From Rhodospirillaceae bacterium (GTDB taxonomy: Bacteria; Pseudomonadota; Alphaproteobacteria; Thalassobaculales; Thalassobaculaceae), in the NCBI GenBank assembly GCA_002722775.1, contig PBMU01000004.1:48224-112223 (forward strand): a DNA stretch of 64,000 bases, in the 5' to 3' direction. The notes below the pieces were generated by a model. It ran no database searches and had not been told where the DNA came from. It saw only the letters and a program-made list of their open reading frames with translations. The position numbers were made by a program, and so were the translations under genes. Position 1 is the first letter of the stretch; the number at the start of each line of letters is the position of its first letter. This document shows positions 9,590 through 57,047 of the stretch, in pieces.

Positions 9590-9593
9590 TATT

Positions 9594-10004: not shown

Positions 10005-10006
10005 TC

Positions 10007-11392: not shown

Positions 11393-11402
11393 GGAGTAAT
11401 GT

Positions 11403-25923: not shown

Positions 25924-26790
25924 CTATTTCCCGTACAGTTTACACATATCACGGGCCATAGTATCCAGAGTAGTAACGTCGATGGTGTGGTTGCCTCTAG
26001 TACCTGCTAGTACTTTGGCGTCACCGGTGGTCGTCGATACTACCATGTGTTTCTTATTACGGATATGGGAGTAGAGCGCGTTGTTAAAGTAGCGGGGTAT
26101 CTTTCTACTAAAGTCATACGTACCGCCACTAGGAACAATCTTACTAGAAGCATCTTCCATTTTACCCATTTGCTCGTGGGAGATAACTACAGTATTATAT
26201 TGTGCGCCCTGCATATAGTCAAGAAACTTCTCAAGGTATCGCCCCTGACTACGCCAGTGTTTGAACTCTTCGAATTCATCCTTACCCATATCCAGTTTAC
26301 GAGTAGCAAGAGCATTAGCACTACTAGCAAGCTGAGTAAAGCTATCCCATACTACTACCCATTCATTAGGGTCCAGACTATTCAGTGTCCACTCGTTGAT
26401 AATACCATTAGTGAACTCACCAGCTTTGATAGCAGGCACTTCCTTATTCAATTCTCTGCACTCTGCGCACGCAGGAGTAATAGCAGGCTTATTCATAAGG
26501 ATACCATGCGCGTCACACATCTGAGCTTTAGTACCATTGGCAAGGAACATAGCACTATTAACAAAGTTATAGTTGTCCTTATTATCATACACCGGCTGCA
26601 CATAGATATTGCGTAACCATGCTGGTGGTAGGTTGGCTAATAGTGACCGGCCATTCTCACCGTCGATGTACAGTACCTTGAACTTAGATGCCAGTGACAG
26701 TGCTAGTGTTGTCTTACCTGTCAGTGAGGCACCATATATAATGGTAGACTGCGCACTAGATTGCTTTGCTACGACTGTGGCCTGTGGCAT
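25924..26790 (-). CDS. Sak4 / AAA_24-like RecA-fold ATPase (recombination), 288 aa
   Basis: Walker A IIYGASLTGKTTLAL followed by LYIDGENG. Walker B-like VVVWDSF. Confidence 0.65.
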   Translation of the reverse strand: MPQATVVAKQSSAQSTIIYGASLTGKTTLALSLASKFKVLYIDGENGRSLLANLPPAWLRNIYVQPVYDNKDNYNFVNSAMFLANGTKAQMCDAHGILMNKPAITPACAECRELNKEVPAIKAGEFTNGIINEWTLNSLDPNEWVVVWDSFTQLASSANALATRKLDMGKDEFEEFKHWRSQGRYLEKFLDYMQGAQYNTVVISHEQMGKMEDASSKIVPSGGTYDFSRKIPRYFNNALYSHIRNKKHMVVSTTTGDAKVLAGTRGNHTIDVTTLDTMARDMCKLYGK

Positions 26791-27038
26791 TATTCAGACT
26801 CCTCTTCGTTACTACCAGTGGGCTCTGCCACGTAGCCTAACTCTGTTAGTACTGCTGCGCACAACAGGATAGCTTTGGCATTTGCTACTATCCATTGAGG
26901 CTTCACATTCCAGCCAGTCTGACGCAACTCACTACTGACGGATAAGTCCAGTAATGCTTGGTAGTCTTCCGCCTCTACAAGAGTAGGGAATTCTTTGCCG
27001 TCACTGGCAGTGTAGTTTATTTTAATCTCAGTAGTCAC
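26790..27038 (-). CDS. Hypothetical acidic protein, 82 aa
   Basis: Start/stop overlaps on both sides (coupled). Confidence 0.55.
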   Translation of the reverse strand: MTTEIKINYTASDGKEFPTLVEAEDYQALLDLSVSSELRQTGWNVKPQWIVANAKAILLCAAVLTELGYVAEPTGSNEEESE

Positions 27039-28087
27039 TATTCGTCTCCTAACATTGTTGTCATAAATAAATCAGCATCACCTACTTCTGACTCTTCACC
27101 AGATTCTATCTGTTCTATCAGTTCATCCTGACGGTCCAGTAGTTGGTCCAGTGTAAAGTGGAAGTCAGGGTTAGTGAGCTTAGTGTAACTCTCTTCGTCA
27201 GTAGTACCATCCACCGGCTTAAAGATACGGGACAGTGCTGCATCGGAATACTGGCAAGCACTATCAATGTACTCACACGGACGGAAGTAAGAGTAGCAGT
27301 GCTGCCCTTGCCGTGGATAACCATAGTGCTCATACAACTTGGCCTTCTCTACCTCTACTACTAAGTCCCGTAACCAGTCAGCACGATGCTTGGTAGTTTT
27401 AACAAATGGCATCGGTACTATGTTCATACTACGGGACTGGAATACCAGATAGAGTACATCGAAACTAGCAGCCTGTCCTTTATTAGCAGCCATCAAGTCA
27501 ATGACAGCGCCGTATCCTAGAGCCTGACTACTATTCTTATAGGTGGCTTCATGGACAGACGACATACCAGTAGTCTTGAGTTCTATTACCATGTAACGTT
27601 GCTTCTCAGGATGGTACAGTACTAGGTCGATGTGACCTTCGAATGTATACCCATCTATCAAATCTATTACAAAGGTAAGCTCGATTGCTGGTACTTCTTT
27701 ACCATCTTGCATTACTCGTGCTACTTCCCATCCATCTAGGTAGCTGTACACGCCAGCTTGGTAGCGCTTGATGAATAAGTCTGTTGCTACTAGCGCAGTC
27801 CAGATAGATTTCTTACTGGCTTGTTCCCCGTCAGTACCAATGTCTTCGATGTCGTGGGTATAAGCCAGCATACACTGTACCATGCACTGCTCGTAAGAGT
27901 AGCCAGCAATAGCAGACTGAATACCCATTGCTACTGCGTGTCCATAGCTGAATGTTACTGACTCACGATTAGCCTTAATAGCGAACTTAGAATCCAGCTC
28001 GAATTTACGAGGGCAATTCTGTAGTGTTAGCTGGCGACTGTAAGACAGACCAGTATGAGTGATGTTGTAGTAGTCGAGTTTAGCCAT
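27038..28087 (-). CDS. PD-(D/E)XK exonuclease with Cas4-like Cys cluster, 349 aa
   Basis: N-terminal LQNCPRKFEL. Core HIDLVLY...MVIELKTT (D...ExK). C-terminal HCYSYFRPCEYIDSAC cysteines. Confidence 0.7.
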   Translation of the reverse strand: MAKLDYYNITHTGLSYSRQLTLQNCPRKFELDSKFAIKANRESVTFSYGHAVAMGIQSAIAGYSYEQCMVQCMLAYTHDIEDIGTDGEQASKKSIWTALVATDLFIKRYQAGVYSYLDGWEVARVMQDGKEVPAIELTFVIDLIDGYTFEGHIDLVLYHPEKQRYMVIELKTTGMSSVHEATYKNSSQALGYGAVIDLMAANKGQAASFDVLYLVFQSRSMNIVPMPFVKTTKHRADWLRDLVVEVEKAKLYEHYGYPRQGQHCYSYFRPCEYIDSACQYSDAALSRIFKPVDGTTDEESYTKLTNPDFHFTLDQLLDRQDELIEQIESGEESEVGDADLFMTTMLGDE

Positions 28088-30778: not shown

Positions 30779-31230
30779 TACTTGTTTCCTTTTTTGTTGG
30801 TTGTTACCTTAGCGCTACCTGCTACCTTAGCGGTTTTGCTTGCGTCGTACTGTGCTAGTGTTACCTGTACTATCCCATGCACAGTCTTAATGGTAATAAG
30901 CTGGCTCAAGTGCAAGCCATAGTTAGCACCATTCTGCACTGGAAGTCGTCGCTCTGCTGATAGGTGGGAACAGAACTTATCCAAGTTTAGGGGTGTTACT
31001 GCTAGTGGCTCCTTCTGCTGGCCAATGGCCTGTTCCATCTTAGGGATAGCAAACAAGTACCGCAGTACTAGCTCTTCCAGTTGTGCCTTAGTGAGCTTGC
31101 CTGCCTGTACTAATCCGGATAGTACTTCCAAGTCACCAAATAGTACTTCTCGTTGTTCTTCCAGTGTCAGGTCTGTTAGTACTTCTGCAGGGTCCTTGCG
31201 TTGTACTTCATTGTCATTACTAGTAGTCAT
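30778..31230 (-). CDS. Hypothetical protein, 150 aa
   Basis: Start set at ATG 31230 (GGAGGctata-ATG). The track start 31242 is a TTG inside the SD. Confidence 0.55.
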   Translation of the reverse strand: MTTSNDNEVQRKDPAEVLTDLTLEEQREVLFGDLEVLSGLVQAGKLTKAQLEELVLRYLFAIPKMEQAIGQQKEPLAVTPLNLDKFCSHLSAERRLPVQNGANYGLHLSQLITIKTVHGIVQVTLAQYDASKTAKVAGSAKVTTNKKGNK

Positions 31231-33490
31231 TATAGCCTCCAAGTTCTTTCTGTAGTTTCTTTGCGTCTAAGTAGCCGCTGTCTCGTAGTGATACAAAGCG
31301 GCGATGAATATTACTATCGGGGTCTTTCGCAGCCTTAATATAGGCTAGTGCTTTCTTGCGGAAGTGATTAAGTTTCTCTGCTAGTGTGTCTCCTTTTATC
31401 TTCTGATTAACAAGGCATTTGTGTAGCATACTATACTTGTTATCAATGTATTTACCAGTATAGTTACCACTGTACATAACCTCTAAGTGGTGACGCGCAC
31501 GAGTAACACCAGTATAGAATGTCTCTCGTTGTGCTGCCACGCTGTGACTATGATGCAGGATTAGCAGTACACTAGGGAATTCAGAACCCTGTGACTTGTG
31601 TACTGTTAGTGCATACATAGGTAGTAGTGTTCCGATAGCATTGGTGGATAACTTCACTTCCATTCCATCACCAACGGGAGTTAGTACTACAGTATGACTA
31701 GCTTGGTTACTAGTCTCTTCATCTTCCGTCGCCGCATACTCCTGTGCCATTAGTTCTTCCAGCTCCATATCATCTACTTCTGCTTCATGCTGTTCATCAC
31801 TAATACCAAACACCTCTTCACGATGGCCCTTCTTAGCTTGGCCCCATCTAGTAAGATACGGGGATGCTTCTAGTGGCTTAGGTCCACGGTACTTATCATT
31901 CTTGTAGATGTCAGTAATATGGTATGGTAGTTTGTTATGTAGTACTCTATCGCCTATAGACCAGTATGTCTTACCAAAGCGGGTTATTACTTCGAATACT
32001 GGTAGGTTATCCCTGTCACTAATACCCTGCATAATGTACTTATTCAGTTCGATGGTGCCAAAGGCTTTATTGAATGGTATTAGTACCTGTGTTTCCTCTG
32101 GGTCAAATCGGTAATCCATTATACGCTTCTGGAGCAGTAGGCCAGTATTCTTAAGTGCTACTTCTGGCGTCCAGTTCTTAACATAGCGTGTGAACTTGAT
32201 ACTATCCTCGCCCTCAGTTCTACTGAGTTTCTGTGCTTCATCATCCTTAATGGGCTTGCCTGTTAGTATCCGATGAGCCAATTGAGTAATGATACCAACG
32301 TTACGATATACTTCTGTTAGTTCTATTACTGGTAACTCTAGCTGTTTGAATCCTAGTATACCATCATTGAATGGTGGCGGTAACTGGTTCAAGTCGCCGA
32401 GGAATATCCACTGTGTATTACTATCCATTGGTAGTGCAGATTCTAGACACTCATACAAGTCCAGTAGTACACTACCCGCTTCCTCTACCACTATCAGGTC
32501 GAATGCAGGTAGTATCTGTCCACCAGCTTCTCGCCATGCAGTACCATAAGTAGGCGCGAATATCTGACTAGTCCGCACACCAGTAACCTGAGTATCATCT
32601 TCTATCTCTGCTTCTACTGGCACGAATTCTAGTAGATTATGTAGAGTAGTAGCATTACATTTCAGCTCTTCCTGTAGTGCCTCAGTAATGTTACGAATAG
32701 CTTGATTGGTGAATGATACTATTGCTACTCGTAGTTTACCTTCCTTCACAAACTTCTTGGTATATTCACCACTCTCGAACTTACCTAGTCTACCACTATC
32801 GAGGAGTGCTTTTAGTATGCACTTCACAGTAGTAGTCTTACCAGAACCTGCAGCACCTATTAGTACGAATGACTCACCTGCTACTGCTAGTTGTACTGCT
32901 GCTTTCTGCTCAGTATTCAAGTGTTCGAATGTTACTTGGTCTTTATTGAGCTGTGGTGCTACCTTAGCGGTTGTGTCTACTGGTGCTGGTGGCGGCGCTG
33001 GTGCTACCTTAGCGGTAGTAGTTGTGCTAGGTCCAGACTTATCACTGCCATTACGAGTAGGACTAGTAAACACTGGGCGACGAACACTAGTACTCGGCCT
33101 ATCTTGCGTAGTCTGCGTTTGCGCTGGTACTGTTTTCGCTGGCGTAGTGCTGCCAATCTTAGAGAAGCGTGCTCTGAGACGTTGTGCCGCGTCACTAGCA
33201 GTAGACTTATTAAGCTTAGTAGCAGTCTCATTGGTAGACTCCTTTGTTATGCCATTATTAAGCAGGTTAGTAGAAACGCTAGTGTTGCTGCTAGGCTTAT
33301 TGTCACTATCAGCAGTGTTGGTGATAGCTTCCACATCTCTGCTATTGTTAGCCATAGGTTGTGCATTAGTAGTCTCCTTAGACTCAGTTGCTGGTGGTGT
33401 TGGTGCCAGTAGTGATGCACCAGCTTTAGCCTCTTGTAGTGCTAGTGCTTTCTTTCTCTTTAGTTCTGCTATACGTTTCGCAAGACTCAT
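31220..33490 (-). CDS. SF1 RecD/Dda-like DNA helicase with ~190-aa low-complexity basic N-terminus, 756 aa
   Basis: Walker A LIGAAGSGKTTTV, Walker B DLIVVEEAGS, and C-terminal ALTVHKSQGSEFPSVLLIL typical of RecD-like helicases. Confidence 0.85.
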   Translation of the reverse strand: MSLAKRIAELKRKKALALQEAKAGASLLAPTPPATESKETTNAQPMANNSRDVEAITNTADSDNKPSSNTSVSTNLLNNGITKESTNETATKLNKSTASDAAQRLRARFSKIGSTTPAKTVPAQTQTTQDRPSTSVRRPVFTSPTRNGSDKSGPSTTTTAKVAPAPPPAPVDTTAKVAPQLNKDQVTFEHLNTEQKAAVQLAVAGESFVLIGAAGSGKTTTVKCILKALLDSGRLGKFESGEYTKKFVKEGKLRVAIVSFTNQAIRNITEALQEELKCNATTLHNLLEFVPVEAEIEDDTQVTGVRTSQIFAPTYGTAWREAGGQILPAFDLIVVEEAGSVLLDLYECLESALPMDSNTQWIFLGDLNQLPPPFNDGILGFKQLELPVIELTEVYRNVGIITQLAHRILTGKPIKDDEAQKLSRTEGEDSIKFTRYVKNWTPEVALKNTGLLLQKRIMDYRFDPEETQVLIPFNKAFGTIELNKYIMQGISDRDNLPVFEVITRFGKTYWSIGDRVLHNKLPYHITDIYKNDKYRGPKPLEASPYLTRWGQAKKGHREEVFGISDEQHEAEVDDMELEELMAQEYAATEDEETSNQASHTVVLTPVGDGMEVKLSTNAIGTLLPMYALTVHKSQGSEFPSVLLILHHSHSVAAQRETFYTGVTRARHHLEVMYSGNYTGKYIDNKYSMLHKCLVNQKIKGDTLAEKLNHFRKKALAYIKAAKDPDSNIHRRFVSLRDSGYLDAKKLQKELGGYNDY

Positions 33491-33501
33491 AACAGTACCC
33501 C

Positions 33502-34626
33502 TTATAGTTCGAATTTATATTTACGCATATAAAGCCTAGTCATACTAGAATCAGGATGCGCTTTACAGAATGCTAGTGCTTTAGCTTTAGCCTCTTCCTG
33601 CTGCTCAGGTGTCTTGGCTTGTAGAGTAGTAGTGACTTTGGTTTTAGTCTCATACTCGAATACAGCAGCCTTATTAGCACTAATTTCATCATCTAGGTCT
33701 ATGAATCCAAAGTCTGCTTCATAATCCAGTAGTCGTTCTAGTTTAGATTCTAGACTACGCACCACTACTAGACTATTCTCACGCTCATAATCTTCATAAG
33801 TCAGTCCATCTTTTACTAGTGCTATTACTTCCCGCAAGTCCTTCTCGCGTAAGTCAGTGGCAGCAGTATCCATGCAATGACGTATCTTTGCTAGTTGTCT
33901 GCTAGAGTAGCCTGAGCGAGCTGTTAGTACTTTCATAGCCCATCCATTCAGTAGCTTCTTATTAGCCATATCTCTAGTAGTACGCAGACGGTACTCTTTG
34001 AAGCGTGCTACTAGTGAGCGCTCGTCGTCGGCCTTGTCGTATGTTGCATCAATATCCGCATCATCAAAGGCATCTAGCAGTTTGCTGGTAATAGTAGAGT
34101 ACCGGCCTGACTCTAGCATCTTGATGTAGCCGTGTAGAGTATCCTTTAATCTTTTATCTGTTAATGGATTCTCTGCGTTATTAACAATAGTAGGTAGGTT
34201 AATGCGCTCTAACTGGTCTGCGCCAGTACTAATGATTAGTCCAATGAATTCACGTATAGCATCCTTAACGTCAGTAATACCACGGTCAGTAATGTCAGTA
34301 ATAGGACAGTGGCACTCCAGCAAGTCGTAGTCATTCAGTATGGCCAGTAGTACAAGATACAATTCATTATTGAATTTTACGTCATAGTAGATGTCTAGTA
34401 TTTGACGTCGTGGCATAGAGAATATGGGATGGATGTCTGGTACTAGTACATGCCCTTTCTCAGTTCGAAGGAACATGCTAGATATTGCCAGCTTGACGCC
34501 ACTAACACGACAATACGTCACTACTGCCGTTGTTTGATGCAAGTTAGCATCGCGTGTTATGTTGGCTCCTATGACTGGCTGGTATTTTGTGCTAGTGGTG
34601 CGAGCATTGCGAGACTTGGTATTCAT
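33502..34626 (-). CDS. Hypothetical early protein, 374 aa
   Basis: Long ORF with no recognisable motif. Confidence 0.6.
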   Translation of the reverse strand: MNTKSRNARTTSTKYQPVIGANITRDANLHQTTAVVTYCRVSGVKLAISSMFLRTEKGHVLVPDIHPIFSMPRRQILDIYYDVKFNNELYLVLLAILNDYDLLECHCPITDITDRGITDVKDAIREFIGLIISTGADQLERINLPTIVNNAENPLTDKRLKDTLHGYIKMLESGRYSTITSKLLDAFDDADIDATYDKADDERSLVARFKEYRLRTTRDMANKKLLNGWAMKVLTARSGYSSRQLAKIRHCMDTAATDLREKDLREVIALVKDGLTYEDYERENSLVVVRSLESKLERLLDYEADFGFIDLDDEISANKAAVFEYETKTKVTTTLQAKTPEQQEEAKAKALAFCKAHPDSSMTRLYMRKYKFEL

Positions 34627-34639
34627 TGGTTATATATCC

Positions 34640-34846
34640 TTATTCACAATCTTGGTTATTGGTAGAGTTATTGGTAGAGTTAATGGCAGTATTGCTAGTA
34701 ATAGTGGAGCCAGTATAGATAGTGTTAGAGCTGGTGGCGATAGAGGCGATAGAGGCCCGACGACGCCTACGGCAGTTATCAAAATACTGCTGCCTTCTGC
34801 GCTGGTTACTATTACTCATACGCTTTGGTCTATTGGAAGTATTCAT
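34640..34846 (-). CDS. Arg-rich low-complexity small protein, 68 aa
   Basis: NQRRRQQYFDNCRRRRR. Contains in-frame tandem DNA repeats (12-nt x2, 9-nt x2). Coding status uncertain. Confidence 0.4.
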   Translation of the reverse strand: MNTSNRPKRMSNSNQRRRQQYFDNCRRRRRASIASIATSSNTIYTGSTITSNTAINSTNNSTNNQDCE

Positions 34847-34860
34847 GTTTGTCGTGGCTC

Positions 34861-35256
34861 CTATAGTGACTCTATCATTTTATTAGTATGATTACGTATT
34901 ACTTCTGTTAGTGCTTCATTAAGTCCGATTACTATTCTCTTATCAGTAACAGTATTTACTAGATGAAACCTACGAGTACCATTATTAAAGCGCGGTACTA
35001 TATCTACTAGTTGCCATTCAGTGTCAGCAGTGAACATGCATAGTGTTCCGTCATGTGGAATACCTTGCATAGATGTTAGTTCTAGTGTGCCTTTAATGTC
35101 ATAGTGAGCATAGTACTTATTAATATAAGTAGTAACAGATTCAAAGTGTAGTGGAAATGTAACCTTAGAAGTAGCAGTATTCATAGCAGTAATAATCCTA
35201 GTAGTAATAGTCGTAATAGTGACAATAGTAGCTGGTAGCCAGTAAGCAAGAATCAT
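34861..35256 (-). CDS. First gene of the minus arm, 131 aa (start uncertain: 35256 or 35184)
   Basis: The track start 35379 lies upstream of a near-consensus promoter (35296..35324) and has no SD. First in-frame ATG after the promoter is 35256. It is preceded by a 3-codon mini-ORF (ATG 35264, AAGGA SD) that ends in an ATGA overlap. Confidence 0.45.
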   Translation of the reverse strand: MILAYWLPATIVTITTITTRIITAMNTATSKVTFPLHFESVTTYINKYYAHYDIKGTLELTSMQGIPHDGTLCMFTADTEWQLVDIVPRFNNGTRRFHLVNTVTDKRIVIGLNEALTEVIRNHTNKMIESL

Positions 35257-35295
35257 GCCAACATGCGTAATCCTTTGGACTTCCGACCAACTAGC

Positions 35296-35324
35296 ATTAT
35301 CCCATATATAGCTAGACAGGTCAA
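35296..35324 (-). promoter_or_regulatory. Near-consensus sigma70 promoter for the minus (replication) arm
   Basis: Minus strand reads TTGACC - 17 nt (ending TGG, an extended -10 TGn) - GATAAT, with the AT-rich tract cttatattattata immediately upstream. Confidence 0.7.
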
Positions 35325-35341
35325 TATAATAATATAAGCGT

Positions 35342-35369
35342 AGGGATGCTACCTGAGGCACACTAGCAA
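35342..35369. repeat. Left arm of a 28-bp perfect inverted repeat
   Basis: agggatgctacctgaggcacactagcaa is the exact reverse complement of 35873..35900. Confidence 0.95.
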
Positions 35370-35590
35370 TACCAGTCATGCGAGGATACGCAAGGTACTA
35401 TGAGGCACTAGAGGAATCGGGGTACTCCCATACCATACATCATAGCACCCTACATCATAGCACTGGCTAGTACCATACTACCACCAGCTAGTACTATCGG
35501 AATGCATACCTACCACCAGCAAACCCTAGCAGTAGCACAAGATAGCGCAATAGCAGTAAAACTATGTATCTTCTATGTTGTATATTATAG

Positions 35591-35636
35591 ACCCCCCTAT
35601 TCAAATTTTATTTCTTTTTTCCTATACCCCCCTATT
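35591..35636 (+). repeat. ACCCCCCTATT direct repeat pair bracketing a 24-bp AT-rich core
   Basis: Copies at 35591..35601 and 35626..35636, flanking caaattttatttcttttttcctat. Confidence 0.85.
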
Positions 35637-35665
35637 ACTATACCAGTACGGTACTATACCAGTAC
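35637..35665 (+). repeat. 13-nt direct repeat ACTATACCAGTAC x2
   Basis: Copies at 35637..35649 and 35653..35665. Confidence 0.85.
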
Positions 35666-35872
35666 ACAGTAGGTAGCTAGTGACTACCGGAATGCATGGC
35701 TATTGGATGAATGGGCGAGTAGTAGGCATAGTGGCATAGTGGCATGATGTGGTAATAGTGGGCATAGGTAGTAGCATAGTAGTAGTATATGGATATATGT
35801 GGGATGGTATGTAGGTAGGCAGGGGGGTGCCCAATTTCCTTGCGTGCATCGCGTGATTGACGTTACTTCTAG

Positions 35873-35900
35873 TTGCTAGTGTGCCTCAGGTAGCATCCCT
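35873..35900. repeat. Right arm of the 28-bp perfect inverted repeat
   Basis: ttgctagtgtgcctcaggtagcatccct. The arms are separated by 503 bp (35370..35872). Confidence 0.95.
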
Positions 35901-36082
35901 GCCAGCATACCAGTACACACCACCAGCATCTCACCAGCAAGCACGCCACCAGCACGCCACCAGCACTCCCTGTAGAACGTCTGAGCATCATTATGACTAT
36001 AGATAGTGGTAGTATGGTATAGGGTAGTAGTAGATAGAGCCACCAGCACCCGCATAGAGCGTCCTAGTAGCATCATTGGCAG

Positions 36083-36138
36083 TAGCCACCAGCATATAGC
36101 ATAGTGGTAGTAGCCACCAGCATATAGCATAGTGGTAG
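36083..36138 (+). repeat. Perfect 28-bp tandem duplication
   Basis: tagccaccagcatatagcatagtggtag x2. Each unit carries one Chi complement and one ATAGTGG motif. Confidence 0.95.
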
Positions 36139-36150
36139 TAGGTCAGGACT

Positions 36151-36226
36151 AGTGGTAGTGGTAGTGGTAGTGGTAGTGGTAGTGGTAGTGGTAGTGGTAG
36201 TGGTAGTGTGAGGTAGTGGTAGTGGC
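36151..36226 (+). repeat. Hexanucleotide microsatellite (AGTGGT)n
   Basis: Nine perfect units over 36151..36204, then degenerate units (agtgtg aggt AGTGGT AGTGGC). Confidence 0.95.
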
Positions 36227-36250
36227 AGAGTAGCCACCAGCAGGCAGGCA

Positions 36251-36278
36251 CAAAAAAGCCCCACACTAGGCAGGGCTT
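36251..36278 (-). terminator. Intrinsic terminator of the 36299..36985 gene
   Basis: Minus strand: AAGCCC-tgcctagtgtg-GGGCTT followed by TTTTG, about 20 nt after the stop codon. Confidence 0.55.
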
Positions 36279-36298
36279 GTAGTAGGACTGGCGACCTG

Positions 36299-36985
36299 TT
36301 ACATGAAGTCCGACTCATCCAGTTCATCAGCGCTGGCTTCTGGATTCAGTGTTTTCTGGATGTTGTCTGCCCATAGCTCTAGCACTGGCAAGTGCTGCTC
36401 AATCGCTGCATCGTCTAGAGTAGTGGCGAACTCATTCAAGATGTCGCCCATACGCTCAACAACTTGAGTTTTAACAGTAGCCAGTGACGCGACAGTGAAC
36501 TTAGCAGTAGCCTTAGCAATGGTAAAGGCTTTGGCTTTCTCTGCCATGCTAGTGCTAGCAAGGTAGCTTTCCAGAACTGCGATAGTAGCAGCCAACATCT
36601 CTTTGGTGACTTTGATAGAGCCGCCGCGCTTGGCCAGACCTGCTTCCAGTACTGCCAGACCATCAGTGTAGTCAGTGATACCTACTGCGACATTTTCTTT
36701 GTTTGCTGCTTCGATGTGAGCATTAACCAAATCCTGTACAGTAGCGACTTGTTTTTCTGACAATCCAGAGTCAGCCAGCAGTGCCACCATATCAACTGTA
36801 ATCAGTGTGGCATTGAACGGCTTGCGCTTGCTGCCCTTCTCTGCATCCACTTCTACGTCATTGGTAGTAATGGTGCCAGACGCTAGTGCCTTCTGTAGTT
36901 TCTCGAAAGCATCGCTGCCTGCTTTGGCAAAGTTAAAGTTATAGACAGTGGTGAAAGGTTTTGTTGCAACAGTTTGATTAGACAT
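36299..36985 (-). CDS. Stand-alone Ala-rich acidic protein, 228 aa, C-terminus ...ADELDESDFM
   Basis: Start set at MSNQ (AAGGAtgactact-ATG). The track N-terminal extension has no SD. Has its own promoter candidate and terminator. Function unknown. Confidence 0.7.
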   Translation of the reverse strand: MSNQTVATKPFTTVYNFNFAKAGSDAFEKLQKALASGTITTNDVEVDAEKGSKRKPFNATLITVDMVALLADSGLSEKQVATVQDLVNAHIEAANKENVAVGITDYTDGLAVLEAGLAKRGGSIKVTKEMLAATIAVLESYLASTSMAEKAKAFTIAKATAKFTVASLATVKTQVVERMGDILNEFATTLDDAAIEQHLPVLELWADNIQKTLNPEASADELDESDFM

Positions 36986-37074
36986 AGTAGTCATCCTTAT
37001 AAGTAAATTGTACCTAGCATTATTGCTAGTGCCTTGAGCGGCAGGTGTGGCGCTGTGTTGTGCCACTGGTAAAC

Positions 37075-37103
37075 ATTCTAGTCGAACCCCACACATAGTG
37101 CAA
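37075..37103 (-). promoter_or_regulatory. Candidate promoter for the 36299..36985 gene (TTGCAC-17-TAGAAT)
   Basis: Read on the minus strand. The -35 element overlaps the palindrome GTGCAA-gtact-TTGCAC (37098..37114). Confidence 0.35.
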
Positions 37104-37114
37104 GTACTTTGCAC
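37098..37114. promoter_or_regulatory. Operator-like palindrome GTGCAA-N5-TTGCAC
   Basis: 6-bp perfect arms with a 5-bp spacer, overlapping the candidate -35. Confidence 0.3.
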
Positions 37115-37359
37115 AAAAATAATTACTACTAATAGCAGTCTGACACACTGGTAGTGCCACTCCCTCATTACTGTTAGCAGTCACTTACATTCCAGGCCAG
37201 TATGGGTAGGGGTGTGGGAATTTTTTATGCTAGTCCGGCGAATGTCCTAAATAGGGGTTTCTAAAATTCCGCCAAAATTTTGAGCTAACATATACATACT
37301 ACCACTAGCCTCCACACCGTCCCCGCCACTTCCCTAGTACTGCTAATTACTAATATGCC

Positions 37360-37388
37360 TTGACCCGCCACCGCCGCCGCCCTATAAT
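37360..37388 (+). promoter_or_regulatory. Near-consensus sigma70 promoter for the plus (virion) arm
   Basis: TTGACC - 17 nt (cgccaccgccgccgccc) - TATAAT, about 50 nt upstream of the GAGGAG RBS and GTG start at 37438. Confidence 0.7.
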
Positions 37389-37437
37389 AATGCATATACA
37401 TGAGTTATTCCTGACCCCCTAGCCCTGAGGAGCCGCC

Positions 37438-37977
37438 GTGGACCGTAATACTAAGATAGTAGTAGAGCTGCTTTCCAAGTCCAGCCTGCGCCCAGTAGAT
37501 ATAGCAGATATGTTTGATGTTAGTGAGTCTGCCATTGCTAATATTGCATCACAGTACTCTACTGAGATTGCTAATGCTAAGGCTACTAAATCTGTCACTG
37601 ATATGGCTATGGATGCACGACTGGAGAATCTGGAAGCTACACTACTGAATCAGATTGAGGCCAAGGCACCCTTTGAGACGGATTTGCGAGTACTAGCAGG
37701 ACTGTACAAAGTAATCAATGGTGCTACTCGTCGTGTAGAGAAACAACAAGGACCTGCTACTGCTACTGCCAGCATAGTACTGAATCAACGCTTTGTGCAG
37801 AATAATATTACATTCTCCAAAGATAGTGCTGGCAGGGTAGTGCAGGTCGCCGATAATAAGCTACAGACTGCTAGTGCTGACCATGTACGTGAAATGGCAT
37901 CACAGCTATTACTGGAAGCGGATACAACAACTACTGTTACCCCTGATGAGGAGATTGACGAAAGTGATTTCAACTAA
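37438..37977 (+). CDS. Small terminase subunit candidate, 179 aa, C-terminus ...DEEIDESDFN
   Basis: GTG start with GAGGAG 6 nt upstream. N-terminal HTH-like segment (RPVDIADMFDVSESAIANIASQY). First gene of the arm, two genes upstream of TerL. Confidence 0.45.
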   Translation: MDRNTKIVVELLSKSSLRPVDIADMFDVSESAIANIASQYSTEIANAKATKSVTDMAMDARLENLEATLLNQIEAKAPFETDLRVLAGLYKVINGATRRVEKQQGPATATASIVLNQRFVQNNITFSKDSAGRVVQVADNKLQTASADHVREMASQLLLEADTTTTVTPDEEIDESDFN

Positions 37978-44690: not shown

Positions 44691-46193
44691 ATGGCCTTTG
44701 TAGTGACTGCGACATCAGAAGGTACTGTTAAGTCAGGAACGTACCATAGTATGCGAGTAGATGTTATTGACTTTGACGCTCCTATTGCTAGTGTGGCATG
44801 GGTACAGACTAGTGGTATAGCCACTAAGATTGGAGAGCCTACGAAATCAGTAACACGTCAACGTACTCCACGCGTAGGTGAAGATTCAGTAGTGGGCTAT
44901 CAGGTTACTGTTACTGATGCTCAGGGCGCCACCGCCACAGCCACTACATCTATCACTATCGAAGGTGAAGCATTCGACTCAGACAAACTGAACTTAATCA
45001 GTAAGGATTTGAATGGCGGAGTATCACTGTGGTCGTACACCTGTATCAATACTCTGGCACAGCTTACTGCTGCAGGCTTCTGGGACTCAGCCATAGGATT
45101 GGAACCGTTTGATATTATTAAGGTGCATTGCGCTGATGGTCCTCATGAGCTACAACTGGTTGGAGGAGCAGCTCAACACATCAATAGTATACAGAATAAA
45201 GTAGCAGTAGCTACCCAAGGGCAAGGAAGAAACAGAGAATATCCCACATTACGTAAATTGGATACAAACCCCCTACTACTCCCTGCGGACCAGAGCGCAA
45301 GCTCACTAATGTGGCCCTATCTTGTAGATTTATCTGTTAGTGGCGAGGAAGGTTATGCGCTATTCTGGGCTACGGACCACTCCAACCATGTAGGCTCGGG
45401 AACATGGATGGCTACTGCTCCTACACCCTTAGGGCCATGGAAGCATCATGGTATGGTCTTTCGAGATGATGTTACTGGAGGAGAGCAGCATGAGACTCCC
45501 AGCGTGGTATGGGATGAAGTTAACTCACGCTGGCTGCAGTACTATCAACTTAAATTTGTTCCCGGATATATCAACCAGCTTACACTAGTAGCTACTGCTG
45601 ACCGCGTTACAAATGCCGATGGCACTCCCACTACATGGACAGTTATCGGAGTAGCTATTCCAGAGTATTATACCAATAATGCAGGTGACGGGCATACGGG
45701 CTACTTCAAACCTTTCCGCTATGACGGTGGCTGGTATGGATTCGGGCTATACGGTGGAACTGATAATAGTAGAAAGGCTTTTTATACTTCTTATAATAAT
45801 GGCCTGACTTACCAGCCACATCCGCAAGTATTACAAAACGGGCAACACCTACTAGCACATCTAGAAGGCTTTGACCCAGAGAACTGGATGATTAAGCATA
45901 ACTCAGGCGCCACTGTTGTCTATAATAACCAGCTATGGTTGATTGCACCAGCAGGGGCTGGAGCGTCCGGTGGTGCAGAAATTCCTATGGGTAAAATATG
46001 TGCCTTCCGTGTTGGTAGCGATGGAGTAACACTAGGCAAGGCTGTGGATATAACCCCGCCACTACAGGCATGGGAAGACCAGACACTTGGAGTAGACCAA
46101 TTGGGCAGTGCTGTTATGTGGCAAGGCAGAATGTATGTAGTGTATCGTCAAGGCGGTGGTGACGGTGGGTTTGGACTGATGGAGGTTTTATAA
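44691..46193 (+). CDS. Tailspike-like protein 1, 500 aa: shared N-terminal anchor module plus putative glycosidase/beta-propeller-like domain
   Basis: ctAGGAGa RBS. The N-terminal ~160 aa are paralogous to the 46943/1298 protein. The C-terminal part has WATDHSNH, LGPWKHHG and ETPSVVWD motifs reminiscent of GH32/43-type propellers (weak evidence). Confidence 0.5.
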   Translation: MAFVVTATSEGTVKSGTYHSMRVDVIDFDAPIASVAWVQTSGIATKIGEPTKSVTRQRTPRVGEDSVVGYQVTVTDAQGATATATTSITIEGEAFDSDKLNLISKDLNGGVSLWSYTCINTLAQLTAAGFWDSAIGLEPFDIIKVHCADGPHELQLVGGAAQHINSIQNKVAVATQGQGRNREYPTLRKLDTNPLLLPADQSASSLMWPYLVDLSVSGEEGYALFWATDHSNHVGSGTWMATAPTPLGPWKHHGMVFRDDVTGGEQHETPSVVWDEVNSRWLQYYQLKFVPGYINQLTLVATADRVTNADGTPTTWTVIGVAIPEYYTNNAGDGHTGYFKPFRYDGGWYGFGLYGGTDNSRKAFYTSYNNGLTYQPHPQVLQNGQHLLAHLEGFDPENWMIKHNSGATVVYNNQLWLIAPAGAGASGGAEIPMGKICAFRVGSDGVTLGKAVDITPPLQAWEDQTLGVDQLGSAVMWQGRMYVVYRQGGGDGGFGLMEVL

Positions 46194-46894
46194 TGTTACG
46201 TTTTGATATGTCTGGGAAATTAATTGAACCCAGCAGACTGAAAAAGACTATTGGTGGTAATATTGACCGTGATGGACTTCCTGCAAAAATTGACATACCT
46301 ACTACTGATGACTGGACAGGTGTTACCATTGCAGATAATGTCGACGGAGCATTAGGAAAAGTTCTATCGCGCACTACATTAGGTAAGATTGCTGTACGTA
46401 ATTCTCAAGCAAATTTAATTACTAGTAATGTGGAAGCGCTACATCTAAAGGCACGAGTAATAGGTGGAGGCTCTAATGCTACATCTGGACAAACAACCAG
46501 AAGGTTTCGTTTTGGCTTTATTCATCCTACTGTTGGCAATGAAGGCGCATATGTAGAATACCTTCCGCCAGCCTATGGGGAACTGGAAGGGTCTTCTATG
46601 GTAGGAATAGCTGGGAATGTAAAAACAAGAAAACCGATTAATTACACTGTTAATAACCCTGGTGAGCACTACGCTTTGGATTTATGGGTTAGTTACAATC
46701 GTGCTGATAGTAGATGGTATATAACACTAATGGAAGGCGAGCAAGTTCGCACTCAGTACCCATTCTCATCTACAGAGCTGTCATTGTACAACAGGTACTT
46801 AATTCCATTTATAGAATGGGAGTGGGAAGATGCCAGTGGAGCAATAGATGTTACGGTGTGCCAGTTTGAGCATACAGTATATTGGCGGTTTTAA
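46193..46894 (+). CDS. Second copy of the 233-aa virion protein (548..1249)
   Basis: Identical translation. Confidence 0.7.
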   Translation: MLRFDMSGKLIEPSRLKKTIGGNIDRDGLPAKIDIPTTDDWTGVTIADNVDGALGKVLSRTTLGKIAVRNSQANLITSNVEALHLKARVIGGGSNATSGQTTRRFRFGFIHPTVGNEGAYVEYLPPAYGELEGSSMVGIAGNVKTRKPINYTVNNPGEHYALDLWVSYNRADSRWYITLMEGEQVRTQYPFSSTELSLYNRYLIPFIEWEWEDASGAIDVTVCQFEHTVYWRF

Positions 46895-46942
46895 GTGTAC
46901 TACTTATAGTGCATCATTATTAATATCTAGGAGATTACTATT

Positions 46943-48799: not shown

Positions 48800-48874
48800 T
48801 AACACCGAAGCCCTCTACTATGGGGGCTACGCTCAACCCATTGCATACCACTACCAATAAGAATAGGAGATACC

Positions 48875-49339
48875 ATGTCTAACGCACAAGAACACACGCC
48901 ACATAGCCAGTCAGGCGACCGGACTACTAGCATTGTTATTAAGGAGGGAATAATGCAGGTGTTTGTGATAGCAGTAGGGGCTATCATAGCTACGGGCATT
49001 AGTACTGTCTGGGCTACTAAGTTAGCAGACTATAAGATTGAAGAGTTGCGGTCAGATTTTGAAGCAAGATTCAAAGCACAACTACACTTCAACACTGAGA
49101 CTACTGCAGCGGTACATGTACTACAACTTCAGGGAGCGCGCCAAGATTTACTGAATGAGACTGAGGCAAGACTACTGGAACGGATTCGTTCTCAGACTGA
49201 CGACCGTTATACTGCGGGACAGGCAGACAAAGACCTCAAAGCTGTCGGTGACCGTATAGCAACACTGGAAGCTAGTGTTCAAGCTATGCGGGAATACATA
49301 GTAGCAGCAAGGAGAAAAGAAAGTGCTAAAGACAATTAA
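48875..49339 (+). CDS. Second copy of the membrane-anchored coiled-coil protein (3230..3694)
   Basis: Identical translation. Alternative start at 48953. Confidence 0.65.
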   Translation: MSNAQEHTPHSQSGDRTTSIVIKEGIMQVFVIAVGAIIATGISTVWATKLADYKIEELRSDFEARFKAQLHFNTETTAAVHVLQLQGARQDLLNETEARLLERIRSQTDDRYTAGQADKDLKAVGDRIATLEASVQAMREYIVAARRKESAKDN

Positions 49340-51059: not shown

Positions 51060-51067
51060 GAACTATT

Positions 51068-55234: not shown

Positions 55235-55238
55235 TATT

Positions 55239-55649: not shown

Positions 55650-55651
55650 TC

Positions 55652-57037: not shown

Positions 57038-57047
57038 GGAGTAATGT

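What the first reader, a model, noticed from the sequence alone, without database searches (positions are those of the whole stretch)
35481..36241. Nine same-strand Chi octamers packed into 760 bp of non-coding DNA
CCACCAGC is the reverse complement of the E. coli Chi site 5'-GCTGGTGG-3'. It starts at 35481, 35513, 35920, 35946, 35957, 36040, 36086, 36114 and 36234, always on the same strand, in DNA with no credible CDS. At equal base frequencies a given 8-mer is expected about 760/65536 = 0.01 times per strand here. Chi attenuates RecBCD nuclease activity and switches the enzyme to RecA loading, but only when it is met from the 3' side. This array would therefore be read by RecBCD travelling toward higher coordinates, into the 36299 gene and the virion arm. 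My interpretation is a built-in Chi shield that protects a genome end or a rolling-circle tail. No Gam- or gp5.9-type protein inhibitor was recognised, so the array may serve that role instead. It also points to a host with an enterobacterial-type RecBCD.
Basis: partly seen in the sequence, partly recalled or inferred. Interest (0 to 1): 0.85.

Follow-up and report, generated by a model that had tools for sequence, protein, structure and literature searches.

The report
Non-coding Chi-octamer array in marine phage
A 45.6-kb marine podovirus carries nine to ten exact, same-strand copies of the E. coli-type Chi octamer in 0.76 kb of non-coding DNA beside a conserved palindromic control region; the array most likely switches the host RecBCD nuclease from degrading to recombining before it reaches phage genes, but the host and the physical DNA ends are unknown.

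Summary
CCACCAGC occurs nine times on the + strand at the stated coordinates, so Chi lies on the minus strand. Local Markov models expect 0.07-0.8 copies. The DNA is non-coding.

All eight Chi positions are invariant in all nine copies, while the flanks are at background. The octamer itself is therefore the selected unit, as T-GCTGGTGG-Y. The array recurs in independent assemblies with 9 or 10 copies.

The window is about 1.4 copies of a 45,645-bp phage related to Aeromonas phage P5 and Pseudomonas 119X/PaP2. Seven relatives keep the same 0.6-1.1 kb gap. Several show inverted, lineage-specific repeats there, some around an AT-rich core. None has a Chi array, so the array is a lineage-specific addition.

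In favour of a RecBCD-directed function:
- exact identity to Chi, with a single orientation;
- a T at position -1;
- near-total GATC avoidance, shared with Aeromonas phage P5, which hints at a Dam-type gammaproteobacterial host.

Against it:
- the host is unproven, and the contig was binned in a Rhodospirillaceae MAG;
- the 3' flanks are not optimal for E. coli RecBCD;
- the phage encodes a Sak4-like protein and a PD-(D/E)XK nuclease;
- the termini are unmapped.

Verdict: probably a Chi "bumper" (about 0.5), a new variant of the known enrichment of Chi in some phages.

The parts
35481..35520 (-). Two Chi octamers (35481-35488, 35513-35520; 5'-GCTGGTGG-3' on the minus strand), inside the left half of the palindromic module. 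Each is followed on the Chi strand by TAG and so overlaps an inverted copy of the GTGGTAG-type repeat.
   Evidence: (I2)
35920..35964 (-). Three exact Chi octamers (35920, 35946, 35957) and one degenerate copy (35931, GCTGGTGA), in 26-bp and 11-bp local repeats just outside the right arm of the inverted repeat.
36040..36047 (-). Single Chi octamer with unique flanks.
36068..36141 (-). 28-bp tandem repeat (2.6 units) carrying Chi at 36086 and 36114. One population variant (L147) has a third unit and therefore 10 Chi.
36130..36225 (+). (TAGTGG)n hexamer tract of about 16 units. Copy number is polymorphic between assemblies. It carries GTGG on the strand opposite to the Chi copies and contains no Chi.
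36234..36241 (-). Last Chi octamer, 15 bp from the terminator hairpin of the 228-aa gene.
35342..35900 (.). Palindromic module. It has perfect 28-bp inverted arms (35342-35369 and 35873-35900) around a 503-bp segment. Left-half C/A-rich repeats mirror right-half G/T-rich repeats. As single-stranded DNA the module folds into one long hairpin (z = -4.3). Comparable inverted arms occur in relatives L005 and L021.
35591..35636 (+). Core of the module: direct repeat ACCCCCCTATT (35591-35601 and 35626-35636) flanking a 24-bp AT-rich spacer. Similar poly-C or poly-G boxes around an AT-rich centre occur in L010, L005 and 119X/PaP2. In 119X/PaP2 the GenBank record start lies about 50 bp from this centre.
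36256..36278 (-). Intrinsic-terminator-like hairpin with a T-run, closing the 228-aa gene transcript before the array.
35296..35324 (-). Sigma-70-like promoter (TTGACC, 17 nt, TG-GATAAT; 10 of 12 matches) pointing leftward into the early/replication arm.
36299..36985 (-). Conserved 228-aa gene (syntenic with 119X/PaP2 gp01), the first gene reached by an enzyme moving rightward through the array. It ends in an acidic tail and its function is unknown.
32985..34737 (+). Three dispersed Chi octamers on the + strand (32985, 33390, 34730), all inside genes. They face an enzyme moving leftward, the opposite way to the array.
25924..28087 (-). Putative phage recombination module: Sak4-like AAA_24 protein (25924-26790), an 82-aa ORF, and a PD-(D/E)XK exonuclease (27038-28087).
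31220..33490 (-). RecD/Dda-like helicase (AAA_30, UvrD_C_2).

Best explanation
The repeats are genuine Chi sites that the phage lineage has accumulated in the non-coding stretch beside its conserved palindromic control region. That region is probably an origin or a genome-end region.

Proposed mechanism. A host RecBCD-type enzyme enters a double-strand end lying to the left of the array; the end could be a virion end, a terminase cut or a rolling-circle tail. It travels rightward and reads the 3'-ended minus strand, meeting 7-9 Chi within 0.3-0.8 kb. A single Chi is acted on in only about 10-40% of passages. Seven to nine in series raise the chance of at least one recognition to about 0.8-0.99 for per-site values of 0.2-0.4 (about 0.5-0.6 at 0.1). 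The enzyme is therefore likely to be switched from degradation to RecA loading before it reaches the first gene at 36299 and the terminase/virion arm. The resulting 3' tail can invade a sibling genome, which saves the DNA and seeds recombination-dependent replication or concatemer formation.

What is shown and what is inferred:
- Shown: sequence, orientation, selection on the octamer, non-coding status, lineage specificity, population copy-number variation.
- Inferred: that the host has a RecBCD that reads GCTGGTGG, that a DNA end arises to the left of the array, and the physiological benefit.
For: 1. There are nine exact copies on one strand, far above any composition model.
2. Information content is 2 bits at all eight Chi positions, 1.5 bits at -1 (T in 8 of 9 copies) and about 1.1 bits at +1 (C or T). 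It is at background further out, although the copies sit in at least four unrelated flank contexts. Selection therefore acts on the octamer, not on a longer unit.
3. There are 9 exact copies against 1 single-mismatch copy, and no other proteobacterial Chi variants are present.
4. Unlike the other repeats of the gap, which are mirror-symmetric about the core, the Chi copies keep one orientation on both sides of it. This fits a direction-dependent reader.
5. T at -1 is the base mildly preferred by purified RecBCD. TGCTGGTG is the second most frequent octamer in the Chi-selected phages LLS and P1 (PMC5041463; PMC12315714).
6. A precedent exists. Oriented, terminally clustered Chi sites occur in LLS-class lambdoid phages and in Pseudomonas MD8, and Chi is also abundant in P1. 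Synthetic DNA with six Chi sites protects linear DNA in extracts.
7. Host clues. GATC occurs once against about 136 expected, the same as in Aeromonas phage P5, the nearest cultured relative (DNA polymerase 43.5%, TerL 38% identity). A Vibrio parahaemolyticus podovirus clusters with the 119X/PaP2 group (PMC12747347). E. coli Chi was active with Vibrio RecBCD expressed in E. coli, several Vibrionaceae show Chi-dependent cleavage of DNA carrying E. coli Chi, and GCTGGTGG is a candidate Chi in 23 Vibrio species.
8. Outside the array, Chi octamers mostly face the other way: 7:3 here, 7:1 in P5 and 5:1 in L005, pooled 19 of 24 against 54% expected, P about 0.01. The two sets point outward from the interval 34.74-35.48 kb.
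9. The 119X and PaP2 GenBank records are linearised inside the homologous module.
Against: - The host is not identified. The only taxonomic label is a Rhodospirillaceae (alphaproteobacterial) MAG bin. From general knowledge, alphaproteobacteria mostly use AddAB, for which this octamer is not a known Chi.
- No relative has the array, including GATC-avoiding ones that probably share the host clade.
- Each relative has its own 3-5-copy repeats in this gap, so lineage-specific protein-binding repeats are the norm here.
- Nucleotides 4-7 of the 3' flanks are rich in pyrimidines, the context disfavoured by E. coli RecBCD.
- The phage has a Sak4-like protein and a PD-(D/E)XK nuclease. Known Chi-rich phages typically lack a recombination module.
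- Chi enrichment in coding DNA (10 observed against 3.15 under synonymous shuffling) is only in the top 6% or so of octamers.
- Physical termini are unmapped.
- Part of the copy number comes from recent tandem duplication.
Confidence: 0.5

Rival explanations
1. The octamer is this lineage's version of the protein-binding repeats that fill the conserved gap. These could be sites for an origin-binding, terminase small-subunit or regulatory protein. On this reading, identity to Chi is coincidental and was noticed only because Chi is a famous sequence.
For: All seven relatives examined keep the gap. Five carry their own short repeats in 3-5 copies: ACCTAAAAA, CTACTCTTTAAAATTAG, TAGGGAGCT, TAGGTATCC and GGCCAAGGTAG. 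Tiera and P5 show no repeat above 2-3 copies. Several arrange the repeats as inverted sets, some around an AT-rich core. The two left-hand Chi copies are inverted GTGGTAG-type repeats with a 4-nt extension, which raises the chance of coincidence for those two. A GTGGTAGTAG repeat is shared with L005. The 3' context is not optimal for RecBCD.
Against: The conserved unit is only 9-10 nt, with sharp edges exactly at the Chi octamer. Spacing is irregular, and all copies have one orientation on both sides of a module that is otherwise mirror-symmetric. Seven copies lie outside the palindromic module and do not share the GTGGTAG context. A priori, the chance that an arbitrary 8-mer equals Chi in either orientation is 3e-5. 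The motif is absent from relatives that keep the neighbouring proteins.
Confidence: 0.3
2. The array is a by-product of replication slippage in a repeat-prone spacer. A few seed copies were amplified together with the (TAGTGG)n and 28-bp units, without any function of their own.
For: Tandem periods of 6, 11, 26 and 28 bp cover much of 35916-36225. Copy number differs between assemblies (9 or 10 Chi, variable hexamer tract) and one contig breaks inside the tract.
Against: The nine copies occur in at least four unrelated flank contexts spread over 760 bp, with no mismatch inside any octamer, while the flanks are at background similarity. Slippage explains only 3-4 of the copies.
Confidence: 0.12
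3. The region is expressed, either as a small repeat protein (GCTGGTGG encodes Ala-Gly-Gly) or as a structured non-coding RNA.
For: In IMG/VR, 111 of 120 loci with three Chi octamers within about 80 bp lie inside an ORF of at least 100 aa, and the other nine look like short coding repeats. Metagenome gene callers place a 59-aa ORF here. The minus-strand RNA fold has z = -2.7.
Against: The copies fall in all three frames, and all ORFs are short, of low complexity and overlapping. There is no Rfam match. The region lies between a terminator and the next promoter. The fold signal is what CCAC/GTGG repeat complementarity would produce anyway.
Confidence: 0.03

Closest known systems
Chi-rich phages lacking a recombination module: E. 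coli lambdoid LLS and about 70 relatives, and Pseudomonas MD8 with GCTGGCGC; P1 is also Chi-rich (Zheng et al. 2025, PMC12315714; Bobay et al. 2013, PMC3784561)
   Same: The phage genome carries many more Chi octamers than composition predicts, with strong orientation bias and clustering. Those authors interpret this as recruiting rather than inhibiting host RecBCD. T precedes many of the Chi sites.
   Different: [quoted passage not shown] Here 9-10 copies sit in 0.76 kb of non-coding DNA. Chi is not the most frequent octamer. The phage is a podovirus of the 119X/PaP2/P5 group, not a lambdoid. It encodes a Sak4-like protein and a PD-(D/E)XK nuclease. The array faces the opposite way to the dispersed sites.
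Synthetic 'Chi DNA' (six tandem Chi sites with spacers) used to protect linear templates in E. coli extracts (Marshall et al. 2017, as reviewed in PMC8329657)
   Same: Several closely spaced Chi octamers on one short piece of non-coding DNA, used against RecBCD.
   Different: The synthetic DNA acts in trans as a competitor or decoy. The natural array would act in cis on the molecule that carries it, although a decoy role for array-bearing fragments is not excluded.
Repeat-filled, partly palindromic non-coding region of phages of the 119X/PaP2/P5/Tiera group (Fredfastierviridae and allies)
   Same: Same syntenic position, between the conserved 228-250-aa gene and the early/replication arm. Inverted repeat sets around an AT-rich core with poly-C or poly-G boxes.
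   Different: Only the window lineage has the extra 0.35-kb right-hand extension built from Chi octamers and TAGTGG units. The relatives examined have at most one Chi in the gap (L005 and P5), in the opposite orientation.
Short repeat arrays next to the terminal repeats of T7 (SRL/SRR; from memory, not tested)
   Same: Arrays of short direct repeats in non-coding DNA near the concatemer junction of a podovirus.
   Different: The T7 repeats are not Chi, and T7 uses the gp5.9 protein against RecBCD. Whether the window gap contains the concatemer junction is unknown.

Membership tests
Enterobacterial-type Chi site | Exact sequence 5'-GCTGGTGG-3' | tested here: met
   Nine exact copies on the minus strand and ten in variant L147.
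Enterobacterial-type Chi site | Statistical over-representation beyond composition | tested here: met
   0.07-0.8 copies expected locally against 9 observed; 0 of 3000 simulations per Markov order reached 9. Whole window: 22 against 2.09. In coding DNA the excess is unremarkable, within the top 6% or so of octamers.
Enterobacterial-type Chi site | Coherent single orientation relative to a DNA end | tested here: inconclusive
   All copies are on one strand, but the position of the DNA end is not known. 119X/PaP2 records start inside the homologous module.
Enterobacterial-type Chi site | Host encodes a RecBCD whose RecC reads this octamer | not testable with these tools
   Host unknown. Indirect support: GATC avoidance shared with Aeromonas phage P5, a Vibrio phage in the clade, and reported activity of E. 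coli Chi with Vibrio RecBCD. Against: the Rhodospirillaceae MAG label.
Enterobacterial-type Chi site | Orientation-dependent attenuation of RecBCD nuclease, or hotspot activity | not testable with these tools
   Needs biochemistry or genetics.
Enterobacterial-type Chi site | Favourable flanks for E. coli RecBCD (T at -1 to -3; A/G at nucleotides 4-7 on the 3' side) | tested here: inconclusive
   T at -1 in 8 of 9 copies matches. Nucleotides 4-7 are TATG, GTAT, GTAC, GCTT, GCTG, TATC, CTGC, CTAC and CTCT, mostly the disfavoured T/C. This is not a defining feature, and the host enzyme may differ.
LLS/MD8 class of Chi-rich phages (P1 shares the Chi abundance) | No phage recombination module and no RecBCD inhibitor | tested here: not met
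   A Sak4-like AAA_24 protein (45.3 bits, cutoff 27) and a PDDEXK_1 nuclease (40.5 bits, cutoff 22) are present. No inhibitor was recognised.
LLS/MD8 class of Chi-rich phages (P1 shares the Chi abundance) | [quoted passage not shown] | tested here: not met
   Outside the gap Chi ranks 146th (10 copies). The top octamers occur 26-28 times and reflect codon-pair usage.
LLS/MD8 class of Chi-rich phages (P1 shares the Chi abundance) | Sites concentrated toward the end open to RecBCD, in the active orientation | not testable with these tools
   Ends unmapped. The dispersed sites (7:3) and the array face opposite directions.
Origin iterons or terminase pac repeats | Conserved unit of about 15-22 bp, regular or helically phased spacing, retained with its binding protein in relatives | tested here: not met
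   The conserved unit is 9-10 nt and the spacings are 11-407 bp with no phase. The motif is absent from relatives that keep the flanking genes. The gap as a whole does look like an origin or terminus region, but it has no DnaA boxes.
Coding Ala-Gly-Gly / Pro-Pro-Ala repeats (the usual cause of clustered GCTGGTGG in viral contigs) | All copies in one reading frame of a long ORF | tested here: not met
   Copies fall in all three frames and only short low-complexity ORFs are present. By contrast, 111 of 120 IMG/VR clusters lie inside ORFs of at least 100 aa.

The most novel reading that the evidence does not exclude
A marine podovirus outside the lambdoids has built a dedicated non-coding 'Chi bumper', to my knowledge the densest natural Chi array described (9-10 sites in 0.76 kb, 7-8 of them in 0.32 kb). 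On this reading the array makes recognition by host RecBCD likely right next to a DNA end, so a cis-acting DNA element does the job that Gam or gp5.9 proteins do in other phages. It would do so in a phage that also has its own annealing protein and nuclease. If true, this also shows that the E. coli-type Chi-RecBCD dialogue operates in an abundant marine host (probably Vibrionaceae or a neighbour). It would also mean that Chi copy number in the array is evolving by tandem duplication in present-day populations.
Probability: 0.45. Interest if true: 0.75.

Novelty: new variant of a known kind. Interest (0 to 1): 0.6.

Why it matters
Phage counter-measures against RecBCD are mostly thought of as proteins (Gam, gp5.9, Abc2, end-binding proteins). 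Chi enrichment has recently been recognised in lambdoid phages and P1 as a way of using RecBCD. A compact non-coding Chi array in an unrelated, environmentally widespread marine podovirus would matter for four reasons:
- It would show that the strategy is general and can be condensed into a small cis element.
- It would give a natural counterpart to the synthetic "Chi6" DNA used in cell-free systems.
- It would offer a sequence-only clue to the host's recombination machinery for an uncultured phage.
- Because Chi limits RecBCD-dependent spacer acquisition (general knowledge), it would suggest a way to reduce CRISPR adaptation from phage ends.

The array is small and portable, so the claim is directly testable with purified RecBCD.

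Tried and rejected
Searches that gave nothing useful:
- Nucleotide searches of the gap against 50,697 phage records found nothing in near or distant mode.
- IMG/VR scans with the 228-aa protein and with TerL found no relatives.
- The one genome-contig scan, with a TerL profile, gave only remote hits (Bifidobacteriaceae MAG, Campylobacteraceae, Ruegeria) and no host.
- A tblastn of TerL against plasmids, aimed at episomal relatives with named hosts, gave one remote Selenomonas hit.
- A tail-fibre candidate gave no host clue.
- Vibrio phage SMILEY (PX056655) is not in the held collection.
- Rfam found nothing in 34500-37600, and there are no tRNAs.
- There is no DnaA-box cluster.
- PDB sequence searches for the 228-aa and 374-aa neighbours found nothing.
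- The 228-aa protein has no homologues beyond the identical sequence in the word-indexed search, so I did not attempt structure prediction.

Ideas considered and rejected or down-weighted:
- Chi excess in coding DNA first looked significant: 10 observed against 3.15 under synonymous shuffling, P < 0.002. It is ordinary when ranked against all octamers, so I do not count it as evidence.
- Terminal repeats were not found in the PaP2, 119X, Tiera or P5 records, so those records do not settle where the ends are.
- Contig ends of the metagenomic assemblies fall at arbitrary places or in the hexamer tract. They say nothing about termini.
- The strongly over-represented CACTAGCA word turned out to be a CTA-GCA codon-pair effect, not a promoter.
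- I considered an invertible-segment reading of the 28-bp inverted repeat. All six assemblies have the same orientation, so there is no support.
Full report
**1. The observation**

CCACCAGC, the complement of Chi (5'-GCTGGTGG-3'), starts on the + strand at 35481, 35513, 35920, 35946, 35957, 36040, 36086, 36114 and 36234, exactly as reported (sequence). The window holds 22 matches on both strands against 2.09 expected from dinucleotide-preserving shuffles. I also used a deliberately conservative local null: Markov chains of order 1-3 trained on the gap itself, which already contains the motif. These expect 0.07, 0.17 and 0.80 copies, and none of 3000 simulations per order reached nine.

Every CCAC tetramer on the + strand of the gap belongs to one of the nine copies. 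None of the 19 GTGG on the + strand is part of a Chi. Only one single-mismatch copy exists in the gap (35931), and no other proteobacterial Chi variants occur.

The DNA is non-coding. The ORFs are short, overlapping and of low complexity, and the copies occupy all three frames. This matters because clustered GCTGGTGG in viral contigs is normally a coding repeat. Of 120 IMG/VR loci with three copies within about 80 bp, 111 lie in an ORF of at least 100 aa, and the other nine also look like short coding repeats.

**2. What the window is**

The first 18,355 bases recur at an offset of 45,645 with a single mismatch. The window is therefore about 1.4 tandem copies of a 45,645-bp genome.

Identical proteins are found on 45.6-45.8-kb contigs. 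These are circular-type assemblies; for example 45,772 = 45,645 + k127. They come from Tara Oceans and other marine metagenomes. The same proteins also sit on a 119,476-bp NCBI contig that carries about 2.6 genome copies and is filed under "MAG: Rhodospirillaceae bacterium".

The gene layout is as follows:
- A minus-strand early/replication arm runs from 37168 down to 19272. It includes a RecD/Dda-like helicase, a DnaQ-like exonuclease, a PD-(D/E)XK exonuclease, a Sak4-like AAA_24 protein, a family-A DNA polymerase and a primase.
- A plus-strand arm runs from 37438 through the wrap point to 18754. It includes TerL, an SU10-type portal and major capsid protein, and large tail or internal proteins.

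The nearest cultured relatives are Aeromonas phage P5 (TerL 38%, polymerase 43.5% identity), Pseudomonas phages 119X/PaP2 (Fredfastierviridae), Polaromonas phage Tiera and EBPR podovirus 3. No TerL between 63% and 100% identity exists in the 5.8-billion-protein collection, so the lineage has no close sisters on record.

**3. Anatomy of the gap**

The array lies in a 0.92-kb ORF-free stretch (35380-36298). If the 172-aa ORF starts at an internal ATG, the stretch is about 1.1 kb. It is bounded on the right by a terminator-like hairpin of the conserved 228-aa gene (36278-36256, minus strand). It is bounded on the left by a sigma-70-like promoter that fires leftward (35324-35296).

The left 560 bp form a palindromic module. 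Perfect 28-bp arms (35342-35369 and 35873-35900) enclose 503 bp. C/A-rich repeats on the left mirror G/T-rich repeats on the right. At the centre, two ACCCCCCTATT boxes flank an AT-rich spacer. As single-stranded DNA the module folds into one long hairpin (z = -4.3).

Two Chi copies (35481, 35513) lie in the left half of this module. On the Chi strand they read GCTGGTGG-TAG, so they overlap inverted copies of the GTGGTAG-type repeat.

The other seven copies lie in a 0.35-kb extension to the right of the module (35901-36255). There they are interleaved with a 28-bp tandem unit and about 16 TAGTGG hexamers.

**4. Selection acts on the octamer**

I aligned the nine copies on the Chi strand:
- Positions 1-8 each carry 2 bits of information.
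- Position -1 carries 1.5 bits (T in 8 of 9 copies).
- Position +1 carries 1.1 bits (C or T).
- Everything further out carries 0.03-0.6 bits, apart from about 1.0 bit at position -3 (G/A).

The copies fall into at least four unrelated flank contexts. Recent duplication (28-, 26- and 11-bp periods) explains only some of them. An exact 8-mer kept in all copies while the flanks are random is the signature of selection on the octamer itself. The spacings (11-407 bp) have no helical or codon phase.

**5. Population data**

Six independent assemblies agree base for base across the gap, except in repeat number. One has one TAGTGG fewer. One (L147) has a third 28-bp unit, and thus ten Chi, together with fewer hexamers. 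One contig ends inside the hexamer tract. The array is real and is currently changing by tandem duplication.

**6. Relatives**

All seven relatives examined keep a 0.6-1.1-kb gap at the same syntenic place. They have TerL identities of 31-62% and are L005, L010, L021, L024, 119X/PaP2, Tiera and P5.

Five carry their own short repeats in 3-5 copies, while Tiera and P5 show none above 2-3 copies. Several arrange these repeats as inverted sets, and some have an AT-rich core with poly-C or poly-G boxes. L005 has 72-nt arms 315 bp apart, and L021 has 45-nt arms 438 bp apart.

None has a Chi array. L005 and P5 each have one Chi in the gap, in the opposite orientation. L005 shares the GTGGTAGTAG repeat with the window.

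The gap is therefore a conserved control region of the family. Likely roles are a replication origin, a concatemer junction or genome end, or both. The GenBank records of 119X and PaP2 are linearised about 50 bp from the centre of their module. A PaP2-like phage is reported to have terminally redundant ends and to persist as an episome (PMC13348215). The Chi array is a lineage-specific addition to this region.

**7. Does the host read this Chi?**

The host could not be identified. The clues point in two directions.

For a gammaproteobacterium of the Dam clade:
- GATC occurs once in 45,645 bp against about 136 expected, while the other fifteen 4-bp palindromes have ratios of 0.59-1.06.
- The same near-absence of GATC is seen in Aeromonas phage P5 and in relatives L005, L021 and L024. 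It is not seen in 119X, Tiera or L010.
- GATC loss is linked to Dam-directed mismatch repair for coliphage phiX174 (PMC5014478 abstract). From my own knowledge it is classical for enterobacterial phages such as T7.
- A Vibrio parahaemolyticus podovirus (SMILEY) clusters with 119X/PaP2/PaMx41 (PMC12747347).
[quoted passage not shown] Several Vibrionaceae show Chi-dependent cleavage of DNA carrying E. coli Chi. GCTGGTGG is a candidate, non-polarised Chi in 23 Vibrio species (PMC5041463; PMC8022716).
- The genome's G+C content (about 45%) is, from memory, in the Vibrio range.

Against:
- The concatemer contig was binned with a Rhodospirillaceae MAG. From general knowledge, alphaproteobacteria mostly use AddAB. 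Binning of a phage contig is weak evidence, but it is the only explicit label.

**8. Other tests of the Chi reading**

- T at -1 is the base slightly preferred by purified RecBCD. TGCTGGTG is the second most frequent octamer in the Chi-selected phages LLS and P1, although a codon effect (CTG-CTG-GTG) could explain that in those phages.
- The 3' flanks at nucleotides 4-7 are mostly T/C, which E. coli RecBCD disfavours.
- Outside the array the genome has ten Chi, all in genes. Synonymous-codon shuffling expects 3.15, but ranked against all octamers this excess is only in about the top 6%. I give it no weight.
- The orientation of these dispersed sites is more interesting. Seven of ten are on the + strand, as are 7 of 8 in P5 and 5 of 6 in L005. 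Pooled, that is 19 of 24 against 54% expected from arm sizes and strand-specific codon expectation, P about 0.01. These sites face an enzyme moving leftward, while the array faces one moving rightward. The two sets point outward from the interval 34.74-35.48 kb, as expected if both ends of a linear molecule arise in or near the gap. This is suggestive only.
- No Gam-, gp5.9- or Abc2-like protein was recognised by PHROGs among the minus-arm ORFs scanned, or by Pfam in the subset scanned with it. Many ORFs remain unknown.
- The phage does have a Sak4-like protein (PF13479, above the Pfam threshold) and a PD-(D/E)XK nuclease (PF12705, above threshold). This differs from the Chi-rich phages of Zheng et al. 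and Bobay et al., which typically lack a recombination module.

**9. Mechanism proposed**

RecBCD recognises Chi only on the 3'-ended strand and only when it approaches from the 3' side of the octamer. For Chi on the minus strand, that means an enzyme that enters at a lower coordinate and moves toward higher coordinates.

Cutting at a single Chi occurs in only about 10-40% of passages (PMC5041463). With seven or nine sites in series, the chance of at least one recognition is 0.79 and 0.87 at 20% per site, and 0.92 and 0.96 at 30% per site. The array would then act as a short non-coding bumper. Whatever end arises to its left, RecBCD would usually be converted within a few hundred base pairs. 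The end could be a virion end, a terminase cut at the concatemer junction, or the tail of a rolling circle started in the palindromic module. Conversion would come before the enzyme reaches the 228-aa gene and the terminase/virion arm. The enzyme would then load RecA on a 3' tail that can invade a sibling genome.

- Shown: sequence, strand, selection on the octamer, placement, polymorphism.
- Inferred: a host enzyme of the right specificity, the position of the end, and the benefit.

**10. Rivals**

- The main rival is that T-GCTGGTGG-Y is simply this lineage's protein-binding repeat in a region where every relative has its own, and that its identity to Chi is coincidental (0.3). It is favoured by the family pattern and by the iteron-like context of the two left copies. 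It is disfavoured by the sharp 8-mer boundaries, the irregular spacing, the single orientation across a mirror-symmetric module, and the a priori odds of 3e-5 for an arbitrary 8-mer.
- Neutral slippage (0.12) explains the copy-number changes but not the invariant octamers in unrelated flanks.
- Expression as a peptide or an RNA is unlikely (0.03).

**11. Comparison and novelty**

Closest in kind are the terminally clustered, oriented Chi sites of LLS-class lambdoid phages and MD8, with Chi also abundant in P1 (PMC12315714). Closest in form is the synthetic six-Chi DNA used to protect linear templates (PMC8329657).

The feature fails two criteria of the LLS class: absence of a recombination module, and Chi being the most frequent octamer. 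It also belongs to an unrelated virus group, so it is not a member of that class. If functional it would work like that class, compressed into a compact non-coding cis element. I rate it a new variant of a known kind, with interest 0.6 and confidence 0.5 in the Chi mechanism.

Noticed in passing
whole genome (window 1-45645); the single GATC is at 39614: GATC is almost completely avoided: 1 occurrence against about 136 expected, while the other 4-bp palindromes have ratios of 0.59-1.06. Consistent with this, AGATCT, GGATCC, TGATCA and CGATCG are absent. The same avoidance is seen in Aeromonas phage P5 and in metagenomic relatives L005, L021 and L024, but not in 119X, Tiera or L010. This points to Dam/MutH-type or GATC-restriction pressure in the host.
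   Followed up: partly
window 1-18355 versus 45646-64000; mismatch at 10783/56428: The window is about 1.4 tandem copies of a 45,645-bp genome with one SNP between the copies. Identical proteins sit on a 119,476-bp NCBI contig (about 2.6 copies, locus tags CMM47_...) filed as 'MAG: Rhodospirillaceae bacterium'. This looks like a concatemer assembly of a circular phage contig that was binned into a bacterial MAG.
   Followed up: partly
window 35342-35900; L005 6498-6956; L021 7061-7588; join of 119X record end and start: A large imperfect palindrome of about 0.45-0.56 kb, with lineage-specific repeats in inverted sets, is seen at the same syntenic position in several phages of this group; some also have poly-C or poly-G boxes flanking an AT-rich centre. 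In the window the arms are 28 bp and perfect. The orientation of the C-box core is inverted in 119X relative to the marine members. Function (origin, concatemer junction or regulatory switch) is unknown.
   Followed up: partly
window 36130-36225 and 36068-36141: The (TAGTGG)n tract and the 28-bp unit vary in copy number between metagenomic assemblies of otherwise identical sequence. One assembly breaks inside the hexamer tract.
   Followed up: yes
window 36299-36985 (minus strand): The conserved 228-aa protein next to the gap (syntenic with 119X/PaP2 gp01) has no family or PDB match. It ends in an acidic tail, ...EASADELDESDFM, reminiscent of the C-terminal tails of phage single-stranded DNA-binding proteins such as T7 gp2.5 (from memory, untested). 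The 289-aa ORF listed by the ORF finder probably starts at the internal ATG that gives 228 aa, as called in the metagenomes.
   Followed up: partly
whole genome, for example 35361 (+) and 35874 (-) inside the 28-bp inverted arms: Words such as CACTAGCA, ACTAGCAG, TACTGCTA and AGTAATAG occur 12-28 times each. Those tested against synonymous shuffles (for example ACTAGCAG, CACTAGCA and AGTAATAG) are about 5-6 times above expectation. CACTAGCA is mostly in one frame (xCA-CTA-GCA), so it reflects a strong codon and codon-pair bias (CTA, GTA, ACT, AGT, GCT/GCA preferred), not a promoter. TAG and CTAG are correspondingly frequent.
   Followed up: yes
Polaromonas phage Tiera (L020), whole record: All seven copies of the Pseudomonas-type Chi GCTGGCGC are on the + strand (the TerL strand) and none is on the other strand. 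Whether Polaromonas uses this motif is unknown.
   Followed up: no
window 26790-27038 (minus strand): An 82-aa GTG-start ORF lies between the PD-(D/E)XK exonuclease and the Sak4-like gene. It is called in the metagenome annotations, matches no family and has an acidic C-terminus. It is a candidate accessory protein of the recombination module.
   Followed up: partly
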